DNA from: the human T2T-CHM13v2.0 reference genome, Homo sapiens
Length of the DNA stretch: 64,000 bases
Strand: one strand, 5' to 3'
Assembly (NCBI RefSeq): GCF_009914755.1
Contig: NC_060944.1
Made by a program: the position numbers and the translations under genes. This document shows, one piece after another, positions 57,533-64,000 of the stretch; the first letter of the stretch is position 1, and each line of letters starts with the position of its first letter. Under the pieces are notes generated by a model. It worked only from the letters and a program-made list of their open reading frames with translations. It was not told the origin of the DNA and did not search any database.

Positions 57533-59005
57533 AAACATTTCAAACAGCTGTGCAACGAACACACCAAATAAAAGCTCTAGAATAGCAGTCCAGACGTTTC
57601 ACAAGTATGGCCTCACAGTCCCATTCCCTAGATGGACTGCCTCCAGTTCTGTTCTCTGCCTGGCCCATCTCTCTTTCCCCTCAGGCAAGAGAGAGATGGA
57701 TGGATCAGACTGAAAGGACAGGCATGCTGATCTCCAGCAGGCAGGGGCCAGGAGAAAGTCTCGTTTGCCAACACTTGTTACTGAAGCGCAGAAAAAGCAG
57801 CAAGTGACAGTCACAAAGTCTTCCTGGGTATTCTTCATAACGTACAGTCTATATGCGCAGGAACGAAGAAGCTCCTGGCGGGAGGATGATGGCCACTGCT
57901 CCCCTCTGTCTTGTCTGAACCACCTCGGAGTCCAGTGTGCTGGTCACTCTGCAATCCCCATGCTAAATAAAAACTGTAGCGGCACCTACCATATATAGCT
58001 AGCTATTGCTAAACCTCAAAATCAGACCACGTTCGATAAAGCTTCTTTAAAAGGAATATACACATGTATTTGTACACACACACACACAGGGCACACCAAA
58101 AAATATCCAAACATCTATCAAGGGGATCAAGGCCGTTACGAAACACACAGGTACTCTCCCACTCACTCAGCTGGGGACTGCTAGAACTACGTGAACACAC
58201 CATACTTCAATGCTGCAGAGCATGCACGGGAGACACAATGAGGCCCCCTCCTTGGGACAGTTGAGAAAGGCAGGAGGAAGGGCAAAGGAAGTGAGGCTGG
58301 GCGGGAAAGCTTGAGCCCAGACACCCAGGTGAAAGAGCAACATCTATCTGTTGCTTCCTTTCTTAAAAATGAAGTGGAGAAAATACTGAAGATTTGTGGA
58401 CAACTAACAGTCAAGACATGTTTCTGTCTAGCCTGCTGAACAAGGAAAGAAGGATGAAAAAGCGAGGCTCTCGGGCGTCAGCAATCTCTTCAAATTCGAG
58501 ATAAGTGCAAAAATGAGCCCTGTCTTGGACAGGTACTCCCCAAAAAAGGAAAAGGGTAGAAGAGAAATAAAGGGAAACCAGAAGAGGGACTGAGGAGTCA
58601 GTAACATTCTGGGAAGGAAGGAGACCCTGACAAGGAGGGGTCACAGAGGTGACAATGAGACTGGCATTTTATCTGCCCCAGGTCACATTGGGGCAGCTGA
58701 CCAGGATGGACCCAGACTCCTCACAGTAATGAGGCGAGAGGGGTGGTCATGCGGCCAGCCAGGACCTAGATGGGGACAGAACACACACAACCACAAGACC
58801 ACCCACGACTATAGGACTTTACAATAAAAGCACCGGTCAGTGCCATTATTCACATTGTAAGGATAAAACATCACAGGCCAAAAAGGCGCCGTCAGGAATG
58901 TGACACCCGCGAGGCTGCGGGATTTGAAACTCCAATGCTTTATGACCTATGTCAATGCCTCCCCTCCCGTCTTCTGCTTCCTTGGAAAGCTAACAGGGCA
59001 GGCCG

Positions 59006-59269
59006 TTAGGTGCCCACAACGCCGGGATCATGCGCCGATTCTGGAAGCGGGGAATCGGAGCAGTGGTACAGGAAACAGTTTCCCCAGCAGCTATAGCAGA
59101 TAAGGAACAGGGCTGCCAGGAAAACCAAGGCACAAATTGTGCAAGGCTTCCGTTCCAGGAGGAAGCTGAGCAGGTAGAAGCCCATGAACATGGAGTGGCT
59201 GAACCACAGGGCGGGGTTGAGGGGCTTGGGGATGAGGAGGACGGGCAGCAGCCACTGGAGGCAATACAT
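59006..59269 (-). CDS. BLCAP: Bladder cancer-associated protein (BC10), 87 aa, single coding exon
   Basis: [90 protein letters not shown] is recognisable as BLCAP; two hydrophobic segments; ATG at 59269-59267. Confidence 0.98.
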
Positions 59270-59445
59270 GATCTCTGCCGGGCAGGGCCTTCACCAAGGC
59301 TGCCGGGCACCGCTGCAGGAACCGACCTAATGGGAGCCAGCGGGCGCAGGCGGCTGCCCTCCGCTTTCTTCAACCCTCACTCTCCAGGAGCTGAGCCGCT
59401 GTGCTCTCTGGCTGTCAGCCCGGGATCACCAAGGCAGCAGGGATC

Positions 59446-59501
59446 CTGAAGAGAAAAGTCAACACAACAGACAAACAGACAAAGAACAGACAGACAGACA
59501 A

Positions 59502-59533
<32 letters not shown>

Positions 59534-59545
59534 AACAGGAACAGA
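59446..59545 (-). other. BLCAP 3' splice site with long poly-T and (TGTC)n pyrimidine-rich tract
   Basis: Plus strand reads ctgaagagaaaagtcaacacaacagacaaacagac... followed by an A-run of ~35 nt. Confidence 0.85.
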
Positions 59546-59749
59546 ATGTATACTTATTTGGGAAAATGGATCATGGTTAACAACAGCAAATGTGAAATGC
59601 CCTTTCCTCCCTGCCCACCCGTGAAAGTTCTACTCCTCTCCAAGTCACTAATTCGGGAAGCTTCCTGGGATGTCTCCCCGGGGCTTCTCCTGGGGGATCG
59701 GGGAGAGGGCTCTTTGGCACGGTTTCACACAGTGGGCTGGCTTTGCCTG

Positions 59750-59841
59750 GGCCCTGCCCAGCAGAGATCATGTATCGCCTCCTGGGGCTGCAGCCCGTCC
59801 TCAAGGGGCCCAGACCTCACAATACCGCCCAGTGGTTGCCA
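59750..59841 (-). promoter_or_regulatory. Editing complementary sequence (ECS) for BLCAP A-to-I recoding
   Basis: Inverted repeat of 59196-59289; core 59750-59802 matches 59237-59289 at 48/53; BLCAP Y2C/Q5R/K15R editing is established. Confidence 0.9.
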
Positions 59842-61239
59842 AAGGACGACCAAGGGCTCCCTGCTGTGCCCCCACGTGGTAAGGACAGGGTTCTGTATCT
59901 AGCATCTCTCACAGCCATAGGTGCTCAGGCACTAAGTGCAGAGTTAAAGCTGTTAGCGGGGCACTGCCGGCCACCAGACCACAGGCAAAGGATCCTGAGG
60001 CAGCTACAGCCTCGAAATATTTTAAGATGGCAGCCTAGGCTAAGCTTGCCTTTTTCAAACAGCCCAGCGTCACTTTGCCAGAATCTGCCAACTTCTCCGA
60101 AAGTCAATGTAGAAAAAAAGTCACTATGCTACTTTGTCCAAACTGAACTCGTTTGGATCATTACACCTCCATCTGCTGCTGGCACTGTACAGAACCTGAC
60201 CTCTGGGAGCTTTTAATGAAAATTAATTTTCTATCCACATAGGGGCAAATGCCAGTTGGTCCCTGGGCCAGGCAGCTTGCTGGAAAGAGGTGCTTTCGGC
60301 TGGCTACCGGTGCGCGGGGACCACACTCACAAACCGCATTCCGGTCTTCCCGCCCGAAAATCCGCGCTGTGCGAGGGACCCACAAGACTGGCGGTCTAAA
60401 AGGGACCCGCCTCACTTGGAAACGGGGCTGCGGTAGCCACAACCCTCCGGTAGCGGTAGCGTAACCCCGTTCGGTGATCCAGCCGCACAGCGCAACGGGT
60501 ACAAAGAACCCCACTGGCTAAGGCCGACCTACCAGGGCTTGGGGGAGGGGAGCGGAAGACTGAGGTCGAAACGACCTGTCCAGCAGAAAACTATCCCCAA
60601 GCATATTCCAACCACTTCTCCGTAGAGCTCATTCCTTCCGTGCATACGAAGGGCGCCAATCCTTCCTGTATCCCTCCCACAGATACCGGGTGACTACTGC
60701 TTTTGCGCCCAAAGCGCAGTGCTCTGGCTCAGCTCCCTACAGTAGCGACCTCCACCGCAGATTCTCATCTCCTCGCTACCGTAAGAGAGATGTAAAGAAT
60801 CAGACGGGTTACGCGCTCAGGCACCCTCATGAAGCAGAGGACCTGGGCTTAAAACTCATTCAGTATTAGGAAAAGAGCGCCGAGCACGGGCCTATTATGC
60901 CAAAGCTTCTGAAAGGGGCACCACGTTTTTTGCTCTATGGGGCAGATGACCCCTCCCTAATTTCGGTTTTCCATCCATCCCCAAGGTAGGCTTTGGAGTG
61001 GCACCGGAGACTGAGCTCAAATTTGCAGGCCAGGGACTGGGGAGAAGGGCGCCACACTAAGAGACCTGCACCCCCATTCTCGCCCTGTACTCTACCCAGA
61101 GTCGTGGTACCCCTCCATTTTAAAGCAAAATCCAAAAGCAAGCACGGCGGAATCTTCTGGAAGGGGGCTAAGATGGAACTCAGGAGGCGGGGGTCGGTAT
61201 GGAAAGAGCAGATGGATTATTTTTTTCCTCTCCTGGCGA

Positions 61240-61426
61240 ATGAGGAGCGCCCCCAGCCACCCCTCCTCATAAACACCCCCCAAGGCGCGCATGCGCACTT
61301 AGGTGGCGGGCGGGTACTTAAGGCGCGGCCACCGCGGCTGCGGCAGTGCGCCCAACAGCGGACTCCGAGACCAGCGGATCTCGGCAAACCCTCTTTCTCG
61401 ACCACCCACCTACCATTCTTGGAACC
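61240..61426 (+). promoter_or_regulatory. NNAT core promoter and 5' UTR
   Basis: TATA-like CATAAA 61268-61273; NRF1-type GCGCATGCGCA 61287-61297; GC boxes (GGCGGGCGGG); CpG-rich. Confidence 0.7.
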
Positions 61427-61498
61427 ATGGCGGCAGTGGCGGCGGCCTCGGCTGAACTGCTCATCATCGGCTGGTACATCTTCCGCGTGCTGCTGCAG
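61427..61498 (+). CDS. NNAT: Neuronatin coding exon 1 ([24 protein letters not shown])
   Basis: Strong Kozak accATGG; recognisable hydrophobic N-terminus; donor CAG|GTAAGT. Confidence 0.97.
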
Positions 61499-62454
61499 GT
61501 AAGTCTGACGGGGTTTCGGGTGGGAGAGGGTTCCCAACTCGCGCCCCTAGAACCCGCAAGACTGCGTCGCGATTGCCGCTTCCCGGACCCGTCCTATTCC
61601 GATTGCCGCGATCCTTGCCTGCCCAAGTGCCGCTGCCGGCACCGCGCGCCCCCTGCCCATTCCCTGCGCCGTCCTCCTCGCGCTGACCCTCCCTAGTGCG
61701 CCCGCGCCTGCCAGGGAACAAAGACTCGGGGCGCGGCGGGCGACCGCTGCGGACGATCACCCAGGCATTTAGCGACCTACGCGGTAAGAAAAACCCGCTA
61801 CACCCGGACTCGACCCCAGGAGGGAGGCGGGGCACTACTGTGTTGAAAGACTTTACAGCTCGCAGAGTGAAAATTTTCCACCTTAAAAAATTGCGCATTG
61901 CGGAGAAATTTTATTTAAAAAAACATATAGCGCTTGCGGGGGTGGAACAAAAAATAAGTTAGAAAAAGGCACTTCTCAGAAAAAATAAAAATTACTTCGC
62001 AAAAAAAAAAAACCCTACAACGAATTAGAGAAAAAGTAGTTCACAGGAAAACAGAAAAACGCGCATTGCAGGAAAAATAAATCGGAGAAAAGCACTTGGC
62101 AGAAAAAAATGCATTAGATTAAAAACGCACTGCAGAAAAAAATTAGACAAGGGAGCTAACGGAAAAAAATGGATCGGGCAAAAACGCTTTAAAGAAAAAA
62201 ATTAGAGGAAAAAGCCCCTCGAGAGAAAAATAGAAGGGGAAAAAAAGCACTTCCAAAAAAGGACAATTGCTTTACAAAAAAAAAAAATAATAATAAAAAA
62301 AAATAAAAAAGAGGCAAAAGCGCTTGGTGTAAAAAGAGATAAATCAGAAGAAAGCGCTTTGCCCATAAAATCATTTACCCTAAAAGCTCCCTTTGCAGGA
62401 AGAATTCCCTGCTAAAGGAATCCTTTGCCAAAGGAATCGCATATTTCCTTCAAG

Positions 62455-62535
62455 GTGTTCCTGGAATGCTGCATTTACTGGGTAGGATTCGCTTTTCGAA
62501 ATCCTCCAGGGACACAGCCCATTGCGAGAAGTGAG
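62455..62535 (+). CDS. NNAT: Neuronatin cassette exon 2 ([27 protein letters not shown]), alpha isoform only
   Basis: 81 nt, frame-preserving; acceptor tttccttcaag|, donor GAG|GTATAC. Confidence 0.95.
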
Positions 62536-62763
62536 GTATACCTAAGTTGTGGGTCCAATCAGCTTGCCGCCATGCAGCTCTCAGCACAGTTGGAAAAGCT
62601 CCAGCTGCCCTGACTCGTGGACAAGCTGCGCCCGCGCCCGCCTCTCCAGCCTACGCTGGATGGGCGGGCGGGGCAGGGGGTGGGGCGGGGGTGGGCACGG
62701 CAGCACCACAGACATGCTGTGGGTGCTCTCCACTAAGGGTGGGTCCTGGGTTTCTCGTCGCAG

Positions 62764-62856
62764 GTGTTCAGGTACTCCCTGCAGAAGCTGGCATACACGG
62801 TGTCGCGGACCGGGCGGCAGGTGTTGGGGGAGCGCAGGCAGCGAGCCCCCAACTGA
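62764..62856 (+). CDS. NNAT: Neuronatin coding exon 3 ([30 protein letters not shown])
   Basis: Acceptor tttctcgtcgcag|; TGA at 62854-62856; 24+27+30 = 81 aa (alpha), 54 aa without exon 2 (beta). Confidence 0.97.
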
Positions 62857-63668
62857 GGCCCCAGCTCCCAGCCCTGGGCGGCCGTATCATCAGGTGCTCC
62901 TGTGCATCTCGGCCAGCACGGGAGCCAGTGCCGCGCAGGAATGTGGGGTCCCCTGTGTTCCCTCGCCAGAGGAGCACTTGGCAAGGTCAGTGAGGGGCCA
63001 GTAGACCCCCGGAGAAGCAGTACCGACAATGACGAAGATACCAGATCCCTTCCCAACCCCTTTGCACCGGTCCCACTAAGGGGCAGGGTCGAGAGAGGAG
63101 GGGGGATAGGGGGAGCAGACCCCTGAGATCTGGGCATAGGCACCGCATTCTGATCTGGACAAAGTCGGGACAGCACCATCCCAGCCCCGAAGCCAGGGCC
63201 ATGCCAGCAGGCCCCACCATGGAAATCAAAACACCGCACCAGCCAGCAGAATGGACATTCTGACATCGCCAGCCGACGCCCTGAATCTTGGTGCAGCACC
63301 AACCGCGTGCCTGTGTGGCGGGACTGGAGGGCACAGTTGAGGAAGGAGGGTGGTTAAGAAATACAGTGGGGCCCTCTCGCTGTCCCTTGCCCAGGGCACT
63401 TGCATTCCAGCCTCGCTGCATTTGCTCTCTCGATTCCCCTTTCCTCCTCACTGCCTCCCAAGCCCACCCTACTCCAAAATAATGTGTCACTTGATTTGGA
63501 ACTATTCAAGCAGTAAAAGTAAATGAATCCCACCTTTACTAAAACACTTTCTCTGAACCCCCCTTGCCCCTCACTGATCTTGCTTTTCCCTGGTCTCATG
63601 CAGTTGTGGTCAATATTGTGGTAATCGCTAATTGTACTGATTGTTTAAGTGTGCATTAGTTGTGTCTC

Positions 63669-63690
63669 CCCAGCTAGATTGTAAGCTCCT
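63669..63690 (+). promoter_or_regulatory. miR-708-5p target site in NNAT 3' UTR
   Basis: CCCAGCTAGATTGTAAGCTCCT is the reverse complement of nt 2-23 of miR-708-5p (AAGGAGCUUACAAUCUAGCUGGG, recalled sequence). Confidence 0.85.
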
Positions 63691-63716
63691 GGAGGACAGG
63701 GACCACCTCTACAAAA

Positions 63717-63722
63717 AATAAA
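63717..63722 (+). terminator. NNAT polyadenylation signal AATAAA
   Basis: First canonical hexamer seen after the NNAT stop, ~860 nt downstream. Confidence 0.75.
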
Positions 63723-64000
63723 AAAAGTACCTCCCCTGTCTCGCACAGTGTCCCAGGACCCTGCGGTGCAGTAGAGGCGCACCAAAACTTTGTCTCTTGT
63801 GATTTCTTTAGCGGCATCAACATACACTTCTAAGACTCAGCTGATGTGCCCACTGTGGAACAGGCACACTGCTTGGGGGAGGGAGGAAAAGGAGGGCCAT
63901 CAAAATTGCAATAAGCTGGGCCCCTCACACACCCAACCCCATCTCAATGCTGTCCTGTGATAAAGGACCATCTCCCCCTCTCCCCAAAGAGAAAGGCTGA

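What the first reader, a model, noticed from the sequence alone, without database searches (positions are those of the whole stretch)
59196..59841. BLCAP recoding hairpin: intronic inverted copy of the start-codon region
Seen: 59750-59802 mirrors 59237-59289 at 48/53; two differences give G-U wobbles, so 50/53 positions can pair, and looser similarity extends to 59841/59196. In the pre-mRNA the duplex covers the ATG and loops out ~460 nt containing the 3' splice site (59446). The adenosines of Y2 (59265), Q5 (59256) and K15 (59226) fall in the paired region; Q5 faces an A-A mismatch. Established: ADAR recodes these BLCAP codons. Inference: editing must precede splicing, and antisense NNAT transcription could influence it allele-specifically.
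Basis: partly seen in the sequence, partly recalled or inferred. Interest (0 to 1): 0.7.

Follow-up and report, generated by a model that had tools for sequence, protein, structure and literature searches.

The report
Known BLCAP intron-exon RNA editing hairpin
An intron stretch pairs with the start-codon region of BLCAP exon 2 to make the double-stranded RNA that ADAR enzymes edit; this hairpin is real but was published years ago, so it is ordinary.

Summary
On the BLCAP (minus-strand) pre-mRNA, intron bases 59802-59750 pair with exon-2 bases 59237-59289 at 50 of 53 positions (48 Watson-Crick, 2 G-U). The predicted helix runs on to 59841:59196. This is far beyond chance: the best 53-base window in 100 shuffles reached 32 matches, against 48 observed. 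The intron arm is not a dispersed repeat; in the whole genome it matches only itself and the exon arm.

In the predicted fold, Y2 (59265) pairs with U, Q5 (59256) faces A, and K15 (59226) faces C.

It is the published intronic editing complementary sequence of BLCAP. Galeano et al. (PMC2958456) predicted this intron/exon-2 duplex. They found 11 intronic, 3 5'UTR and 3 coding editing sites in it, and mammalian conservation. Later mouse work states that editing needs the upstream-intron sequence and is done by nuclear ADAR1 p110/ADAR2 before splicing (PMC10404624, PMC8118328).

The NNAT clause is untested, and its geometry is off. NNAT starts 1.5 kb away and is transcribed away from the hairpin.

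Verdict: already known, low interest.

The parts
59725..59841 (-). Intronic arm, the editing complementary sequence (ECS), 279-395 nt upstream of the last intron base. Core is 59750-59802, outer part 59809-59841. The inner extension 59725-59749 is predicted with low confidence.
   Evidence: In the whole genome it matches only itself and the exon arm.
59196..59320 (-). Exon-2 arm: the end of the 5'UTR plus BLCAP codons 1-25. Core is 59237-59289, outer part 59196-59230.
59267..59269 (-). BLCAP start codon ATG, fully paired inside the core helix (A 59269 pairs with U 59770, probability 0.999).
59265..59265 (-). Y2 (Y/C) adenosine, context UAU, paired with U 59774 (probability 0.999).
   Evidence: Editing itself comes from PMC2958456.
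59256..59256 (-). Q5 (Q/R) adenosine, context CAG, in a 1x1 A:A mismatch with 59783.
   Evidence: Editing comes from PMC2958456.
59226..59226 (-). K15 (K/R) adenosine, context AAG, in a 1x1 A:C mismatch with C 59813, flanked by the pairs 59227:59812 and 59225:59814.
   Evidence: Editing comes from PMC2958456.
59231..59236 (-). Exon side of the 6x6 internal loop that separates the core helix from the outer helix. The intron side is 59803-59808.
59290..59749 (-). The 460-nt stretch looped out between the core arms. It holds the T-rich and (TCTG)n tracts, the pyrimidine tract, the 3' splice site (intron ends at 59446, exon 2 starts at 59445) and most of the exon-2 5'UTR.
   Evidence: hub annotation
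59006..59269 (-). BLCAP coding sequence (87 aa), which has no intron.
   Evidence: hub annotation

Best explanation
This is the known site-selective ADAR substrate of the BLCAP pre-mRNA. As RNA polymerase II transcribes the minus strand, the intronic ECS (59841-59725) is made first. About 400-640 nt later the start of exon 2 (59320-59196) is made and folds back on it. The result is an imperfect duplex of about 77 high-confidence base pairs in two helices split by a 6x6 internal loop. The 3' splice site lies in the 430-460 nt loop. Nuclear ADAR1 p110, and to a lesser degree ADAR2, bind this duplex. They deaminate the adenosines of codons 2, 5 and 15 (Y/C, Q/R, K/R), three 5'UTR adenosines and eleven intronic adenosines. 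The ECS leaves with the intron, so recoding can only happen before splicing, and cytoplasmic ADAR1 p150 cannot do it.

Shown here: the duplex, how improbable it is by chance, that it is unique in the genome, and where the three adenosines sit in it. Shown in print: editing at these sites, ADAR dependence, correlated intron and exon editing, and mammalian conservation. Inferred: that this duplex is necessary. I found no ECS deletion or compensatory-mutation test for BLCAP.
For: Structure: 48/53 identity and 50/53 pairing. 103-nt repeat. MFE -299.8 kcal/mol, z -7.33, 0 of 20 shuffles as good. Helices of 50 and 27 pairs with mean pair probabilities 0.98 and 0.95.

Controls: 100 shuffles reached at most 32/53. 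Duplex energy z is -13 against 300 shuffled arms. Among 111 natural 117-nt tiles of the intron from 59446 up to the window's end (tile starts 59446-63846), the ECS tile scores -170.3 kcal/mol, the best non-overlapping tile -111.8 and the median -66.2.

Uniqueness: a whole-genome search with 59725-59845 returns 2 places, itself and the exon arm (80% over 88 nt, opposite strand).

Site geometry: Y2 A:U, Q5 A:A, K15 A:C; none of the three has a 5' G.

Literature passages read:
- PMC2958456 predicts the intron/exon-2 duplex and a 'hypothetical ECS'. It reports 17 editing sites within it, intron-versus-exon editing R2 = 0.85, and conservation in human, chimp, cow, mouse and rat. Its intron primer maps to 59997-60026, so its 580-bp amplicon covers the ECS.
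- PMC8118328: editing is lost in p110/ADAR2 double-knockout brain.
- PMC7075269: the three sites are ADAR1-dependent.
- PMC8659423: the three sites are edited in bowhead whale.
Against: No strand asymmetry supports the sense strand. The plus-strand RNA folds just as well (MFE -298, z -9.98; arm duplex -173.6 against -170.2). The strand assignment therefore rests on annotation and published editing, not on the fold.

Conservation and covariation could not be tested here, because no vertebrate genomes are held. They rest on a figure legend and text of PMC2958456.

[quoted passage not shown] The difference is unexplained and may be loose wording.

The inner extension of the helix (59749-59708:59295-59338) has mean pair probability of only 0.32.

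Necessity of the ECS has not been shown by deletion in anything I could find. Levanon 2005 and Riedmann 2008 were not held.
Confidence: 0.93

Rival explanations
1. The duplex mainly controls RNA processing, and editing is a by-product. By looping out the 3' splice site and pyrimidine tract, or by hiding the start codon in unspliced RNA, it would tune splicing rate, nuclear retention or intron retention.
For: The 3' splice site and an 84%-pyrimidine tract lie inside the loop. A confident local hairpin (59495-59468:59422-59398, 23 pairs, mean probability 0.93; 59446-59440:59430-59423, 7 pairs, 0.96) spans the splice junction. The ATG is fully paired.
Against: There are no data on BLCAP splicing as a function of the duplex. 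The recoding sites are conserved and edited in several mammals, which argues that the editing itself is kept. The two roles are not exclusive.
Confidence: 0.06
2. One reading: transcription of imprinted NNAT on the paternal allele changes editing of the BLCAP hairpin in an allele-specific way.
For: NNAT lies inside the BLCAP intron on the opposite strand (hub annotation). BLCAP V1 transcripts are maternally biased and V2a transcripts are paternal in brain, and transcriptional interference by NNAT has been proposed (PMC2666296). All three annotated alternative first exons have GT donors 489-1572 nt upstream of the ECS, so every isoform keeps the ECS in its intron while intron length differs.
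Against: NNAT starts at 61345 and runs away from the hairpin, so NNAT RNA does not overlap either arm. The hairpin lies outside the CpG-rich block at 60000-62250; its own CpG o/e is 0.33-0.46. No allele-resolved editing data were found. V2a is only about 1% of V1a in mouse newborn brain, so any isoform effect on bulk editing would be small.
Confidence: 0.07
3. It is a neutral local inverted duplication, or a DNA-level element (cruciform, or part of the RefSeq-annotated enhancers 58690-59553 and 59554-60417), with no RNA role.
For: The plus and minus strands fold equally well. RefSeq enhancer features overlap both arms (hub annotation).
Against: Published editing on both arms of exactly this duplex, correlated between intron and exon. 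ADAR knockouts abolish the editing. Conservation of the intron stretch among mammals is reported.
Confidence: 0.02

Closest known systems
The BLCAP intron 1 / exon 2 editing duplex itself (Levanon et al. 2005, recalled and cited by others, not read; Galeano et al. 2010, PMC2958456, passages read)
   Same: Same gene, same intron-exon pairing and same three recoding sites. Their intron amplicon (primer at 59997-60026) covers the arm found here.
   Different: Nothing of substance. The paper's text says the edited intron cluster is in the last 150 nt of the intron; here the arm is 279-395 nt from the intron end.
GluA2 (GRIA2) Q/R and R/G sites, 5-HT2C receptor sites, CAPS1 E/G: exon paired with an intronic ECS
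   Same: An imperfect exon-intron duplex, site-selective recoding by nuclear ADARs, and editing obligatorily before splicing (PMC10404624).
   Different: In those genes the ECS is in the downstream intron. In BLCAP it is in the upstream intron, so the loop holds a 3' rather than a 5' splice site, and the duplex covers the start codon.
Editing inducer elements (Daniel et al. 2017, PMC5654063; one table row read)
   Same: BLCAP Y/C is listed there with conserved, stable adjacent stems on the 5' side (71, 59 and 64 nt).
   Different: Those are helper stems next to the edited helix, not the ECS. I did not map them onto the window.
Inverted Alu pairs, the promiscuous ADAR substrates
   Same: A long intramolecular dsRNA formed from an inverted repeat.
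   Different: The BLCAP arms are unique sequence with only 2 places in the genome. One arm is coding, and editing is site-selective. Of the other 11 inverted pairs in the window, 7 have both arms and 3 have one arm inside the hub's listed masked repeats.

Membership tests
Exon / intronic-ECS substrate of ADAR (site-selective recoding) | An imperfect intramolecular duplex between the edited exon and a complementary intron stretch on the transcribed strand. | tested here: met
   50/53 core pairing; helices of 50 and 27 pairs with mean probabilities 0.98 and 0.95; z -7.33.
Exon / intronic-ECS substrate of ADAR (site-selective recoding) | The complementarity exceeds chance and does not come from a dispersed repeat. 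| tested here: met
   Maximum 32/53 in 100 shuffles against 48 observed; duplex z -13. Only 2 genomic places, itself and the exon arm.
Exon / intronic-ECS substrate of ADAR (site-selective recoding) | The recoded adenosines lie within the duplex, paired or in small mismatches. | tested here: met
   59265 A:U, 59256 A:A, 59226 A:C.
Exon / intronic-ECS substrate of ADAR (site-selective recoding) | A-to-I changes are seen in RNA at these positions and on the intron arm. | not testable with these tools
   No RNA data here. In print: 3 coding, 3 5'UTR and 11 intronic sites (PMC2958456); whale (PMC8659423).
Exon / intronic-ECS substrate of ADAR (site-selective recoding) | Editing depends on ADAR1 and/or ADAR2, and on the nuclear isoforms. 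| not testable with these tools
   In print: PMC7075269, PMC8118328, PMC10404624.
Exon / intronic-ECS substrate of ADAR (site-selective recoding) | The ECS is conserved, with pairing kept, across species. | not testable with these tools
   No vertebrate genomes are held. PMC2958456 reports conservation in five mammals (text and legend of its Fig. 5). Covariation was not counted.
Exon / intronic-ECS substrate of ADAR (site-selective recoding) | Removing or mutating the ECS abolishes editing. | not tested
   This is a bench test. No BLCAP ECS deletion was found by searches. The papers that say 'requires' cite Levanon 2005 and ADAR-mutant mice.

The most novel reading that the evidence does not exclude
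Editing of the BLCAP hairpin differs by parent of origin in brain. The cause would not be NNAT RNA pairing with the hairpin, since it does not overlap. Rather, the two alleles make different pre-mRNAs around the same ECS. The maternal allele makes mostly V1, with the full first intron (the selected transcript's first exon lies beyond the window's end, which is about 4.5 kb above exon 2) running through a silent, methylated NNAT. The paternal allele makes V1 colliding with active NNAT, plus V2 forms with 0.9-2 kb introns. The paternal BLCAP intron could also pair in trans with NNAT RNA 1.5 kb upstream of the ECS and recruit ADAR, in the manner of an editing inducer element. Parental alleles would then give different ratios of BLCAP protein isoforms.
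Probability: 0.08. Interest if true: 0.5.

Novelty: already known. Interest (0 to 1): 0.12.

Why it matters
The hairpin lets one intronless coding sequence give up to eight BLCAP protein isoforms. BLCAP editing levels are reported to change in several cancers (PMC2958456; PMC5503622, listing only). None of this is new.

The finding's value is as a check: a reader working from raw sequence recovered a published ADAR substrate with correct coordinates. Two things appear unpublished in the library I could search: a direct ECS deletion or compensation test, and allele-resolved editing at this imprinted locus.

Tried and rejected
- Rfam scan of 58800-60300 at E <= 1 gave one weak match (flavi_FSE, 59179-59250 +, 16.5 bits against a gathering score of 43, E 0.81). 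I treat it as chance.
- Strand test: I expected the sense strand to fold better because of the two G-U pairs in the core. It does not; plus and minus are equal within error. Fold energy therefore says nothing about which strand acts.
- Dispersed-repeat origin is rejected.
- Conservation and covariation could not be run, because no vertebrate sequence collection is available.
- Levanon 2005 (by DOI and by PMC id) and Riedmann 2008 were not held. What I say of them is recall or what other papers cite.
- I did not map the three 'adjacent stems' of Daniel et al. 2017 onto the window.
- I did not look up REDIportal; no such tool is available.

Full report

Yes. I read the minus strand of 59150-59900 and compared the two stretches directly.
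- 59237-59289 equals the reverse complement of 59750-59802 at 48 of 53 positions.
- On the minus-strand (BLCAP-sense) RNA, two of the five differences become G-U pairs (59776:59263 and 59760:59279), so 50 of 53 positions pair.
- The three true mismatches are U:U (59792:59247), C:U (59785:59254) and A:A (59783:59256). The last is the middle adenosine of codon 5.

An independent repeat search reports the longer ungapped version: 59202-59304 against 59735-59837, 103 nt, 76% complementary, 430 nt apart.

Translation of 59269 downwards gives [15 protein letters not shown]... The intron ends ...TTCAG at 59446 and exon 2 starts GATCC at 59445, in agreement with the hub's annotation.

**2. Is it more than chance, and is it a repeat element?**

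- Minus-strand 59190-59850 folds to -299.8 kcal/mol, against -241.6 +/- 7.9 for 20 dinucleotide shuffles (z -7.33).
- In 100 dinucleotide shuffles of 58900-60200, the best complementary 53-base window averaged 28.9 matches and never exceeded 32, against 48 observed.
- The two arms alone give a duplex of -170.2 kcal/mol, against -87.6 +/- 6.3 for 300 shuffled intron arms.
- I paired the exon arm with 111 natural 117-nt tiles of the intron, from 59446 up to the window's end (tile starts 59446-63846). The ECS tile scores -170.3, its overlapping neighbours -129.7 and -108.6, the best unrelated tile -111.8, and the median is -66.2.
- A search of the whole assembly with 59725-59845 returns two places only: itself, and the exon arm on the opposite strand (80% over 88 nt). 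The tool warns that its DNA search skips very common words.
- The window holds 12 inverted pairs of at least 40 nt within 2 kb, and this is one of them. Of the other 11, 7 have both arms and 3 have one arm inside the masked stretches the hub lists; one (I12) has neither. The hub lists only the longest masked stretches.

**3. Anatomy of the predicted structure**

- Core helix: 59802-59750 with 59237-59289, 50 pairs, mean pair probability 0.98.
- Outer helix: 59841-59809 with 59196-59230, 27 pairs, mean probability 0.95.
- The two helices are separated by a 6x6 internal loop (59808-59803 / 59231-59236).
- A further inner extension (59749-59708 with 59295-59338, 33 pairs) is uncertain, with mean probability 0.32.
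- The start codon is fully paired.
- Y2 A 59265 (context UAU) pairs with U 59774, with probability 0.999.
- Q5 A 59256 (CAG) sits in a 1x1 A:A mismatch.
- K15 A 59226 (AAG) sits in a 1x1 A:C mismatch opposite C 59813. It lies in the outer helix, not in the 53-nt core.

None of the three sites has a 5' G.

The looped-out stretch (59290-59749) holds a long T tract, (TCTG)n repeats, an 84%-pyrimidine last 100 nt of intron, the acceptor, and most of the exon-2 5'UTR.

**4. Strand**

I expected the sense strand to be favoured, because the two wobble pairs exist only on it. Over the whole structure this does not hold. The plus-strand RNA folds to -298 kcal/mol (z -9.98), and its arm duplex is -173.6 against -170.2. 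The fold therefore cannot tell which strand acts. That rests on BLCAP being transcribed from the minus strand and on published editing.

**5. What is known**

*Galeano et al. 2010 (PMC2958456; abstract, section 11 and passages read).*
- They found 11 intronic, 3 5'UTR and 3 coding sites (Y/C, Q/R, K/R).
- They showed the intron stretch conserved in human, chimp, cow, mouse and rat.
- They found intron and exon editing correlated (R2 = 0.85).
- Their intron primer maps to 59997-60026 on the minus strand. The 580-bp product is therefore exactly the last 580 nt of the intron and covers the arm found here.
[quoted passage not shown] The arm here is 279-395 nt from the intron end. I cannot resolve this without their figures.

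*Later mouse work.*
[quoted passage not shown] ADAR1 p110 and ADAR2 can edit them and p150 cannot, and editing is unchanged in p150-knockout mice.
- PMC8118328 (passages) reports loss of editing in p110/ADAR2 double-knockout brain.
- PMC7075269 (passages) finds the three sites ADAR1-dependent.

*Other species and related elements.*
- PMC8659423 (passages) reports the three sites edited in bowhead whale.
- PMC5654063 (one table row) lists BLCAP Y/C with conserved adjacent 5' stems.

*Not held.* Levanon 2005 and Riedmann 2008 were not held. I know them only from citations and recall.

The structure, its role and the 'before splicing' inference are all in print.

**6. The NNAT clause**

By the hub's annotation, NNAT occupies 61345-63787 on the plus strand. 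Its start is about 1.5 kb above the intron arm and it is transcribed away from it. NNAT RNA is therefore not antisense to either arm, only to a more upstream part of the BLCAP intron.

The CpG-rich block of the NNAT region spans roughly 60000-62250 (CpG o/e 0.60-1.25). The hairpin itself has o/e 0.33-0.46.

Schulz et al. (PMC2666296; passages) show BLCAP V1 transcripts maternally biased and V2a paternal in brain. They discuss transcriptional interference by NNAT, and they mention editing only as a source of false A/G SNPs.

The three annotated alternative first exons in the window (60331-60398, 60533-60684, 61414-61546) all have GT donors 489-1572 nt upstream of the ECS. Every isoform therefore keeps the ECS in its intron; what differs is intron length and promoter.

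Searches for allele-resolved BLCAP editing found none:
- 34 papers, 15 listed;
- 4 papers, all 4 looked at by title; for 2 of them one term's passages were read, and the Schulz paper;
-.

The idea is open but unsupported. V2a is about 1% of V1a in mouse newborn brain, so an isoform effect on bulk editing would be small.

**7. What remains unproven**

I found no deletion or compensatory-mutation test of the BLCAP ECS:
- 6 papers;
- 1 paper, where the minigene is a GluR-B control;
- 9 papers, none on this by title.

**8. Verdict**

The NNAT addition is speculative and geometrically imprecise. Novelty: already known. Interest: low.

Noticed in passing
window 59398-59495: Inside the big loop, the fold predicts a confident local hairpin that spans the 3' splice junction. 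The (TCTG)n part of the intron (59495-59468) pairs with exon-2 5'UTR 59422-59398 (23 pairs, mean probability 0.93). A 7-pair stem joins 59446-59440 with 59430-59423 (probability 0.96). It could affect acceptor use. Prediction only.
   Followed up: no
window 59458-59545: A long T tract (two runs broken by a C) is followed by (TCTG)n-like repeats just upstream of the acceptor. Such tracts are often length-polymorphic. Here that would change only the loop length of the editing hairpin.
   Followed up: no
window 59190-59850, plus strand: The antisense (plus-strand) RNA of the same region would fold as well as the sense RNA (MFE -298 against -299.8; arm duplex -173.6 against -170.2). No plus-strand transcript is annotated here.
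   Followed up: partly
window 61414-61498: By the hub's annotation, an alternative BLCAP first exon (61414-61546, minus strand) overlaps NNAT exon 1 (61345-61498, plus strand) by 85 nt in antisense, inside the CpG-rich block at 60000-62250. This looks like the promoter region of the paternal BLCAP V2 forms described in PMC2666296.
   Followed up: partly
window 59725-59841 against the text of PMC2958456: The paper says the edited intron cluster is in the last 150 nt of the intron. In this assembly the complementary arm lies 279-395 nt from the intron end, although the paper's own 580-bp amplicon (primer at 59997-60026) covers it.
   Followed up: partly
window 59179-59250, plus strand: A weak Rfam match to flavi_FSE (16.5 bits against a gathering score of 43, E 0.81). 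I take it as chance.
   Followed up: yes
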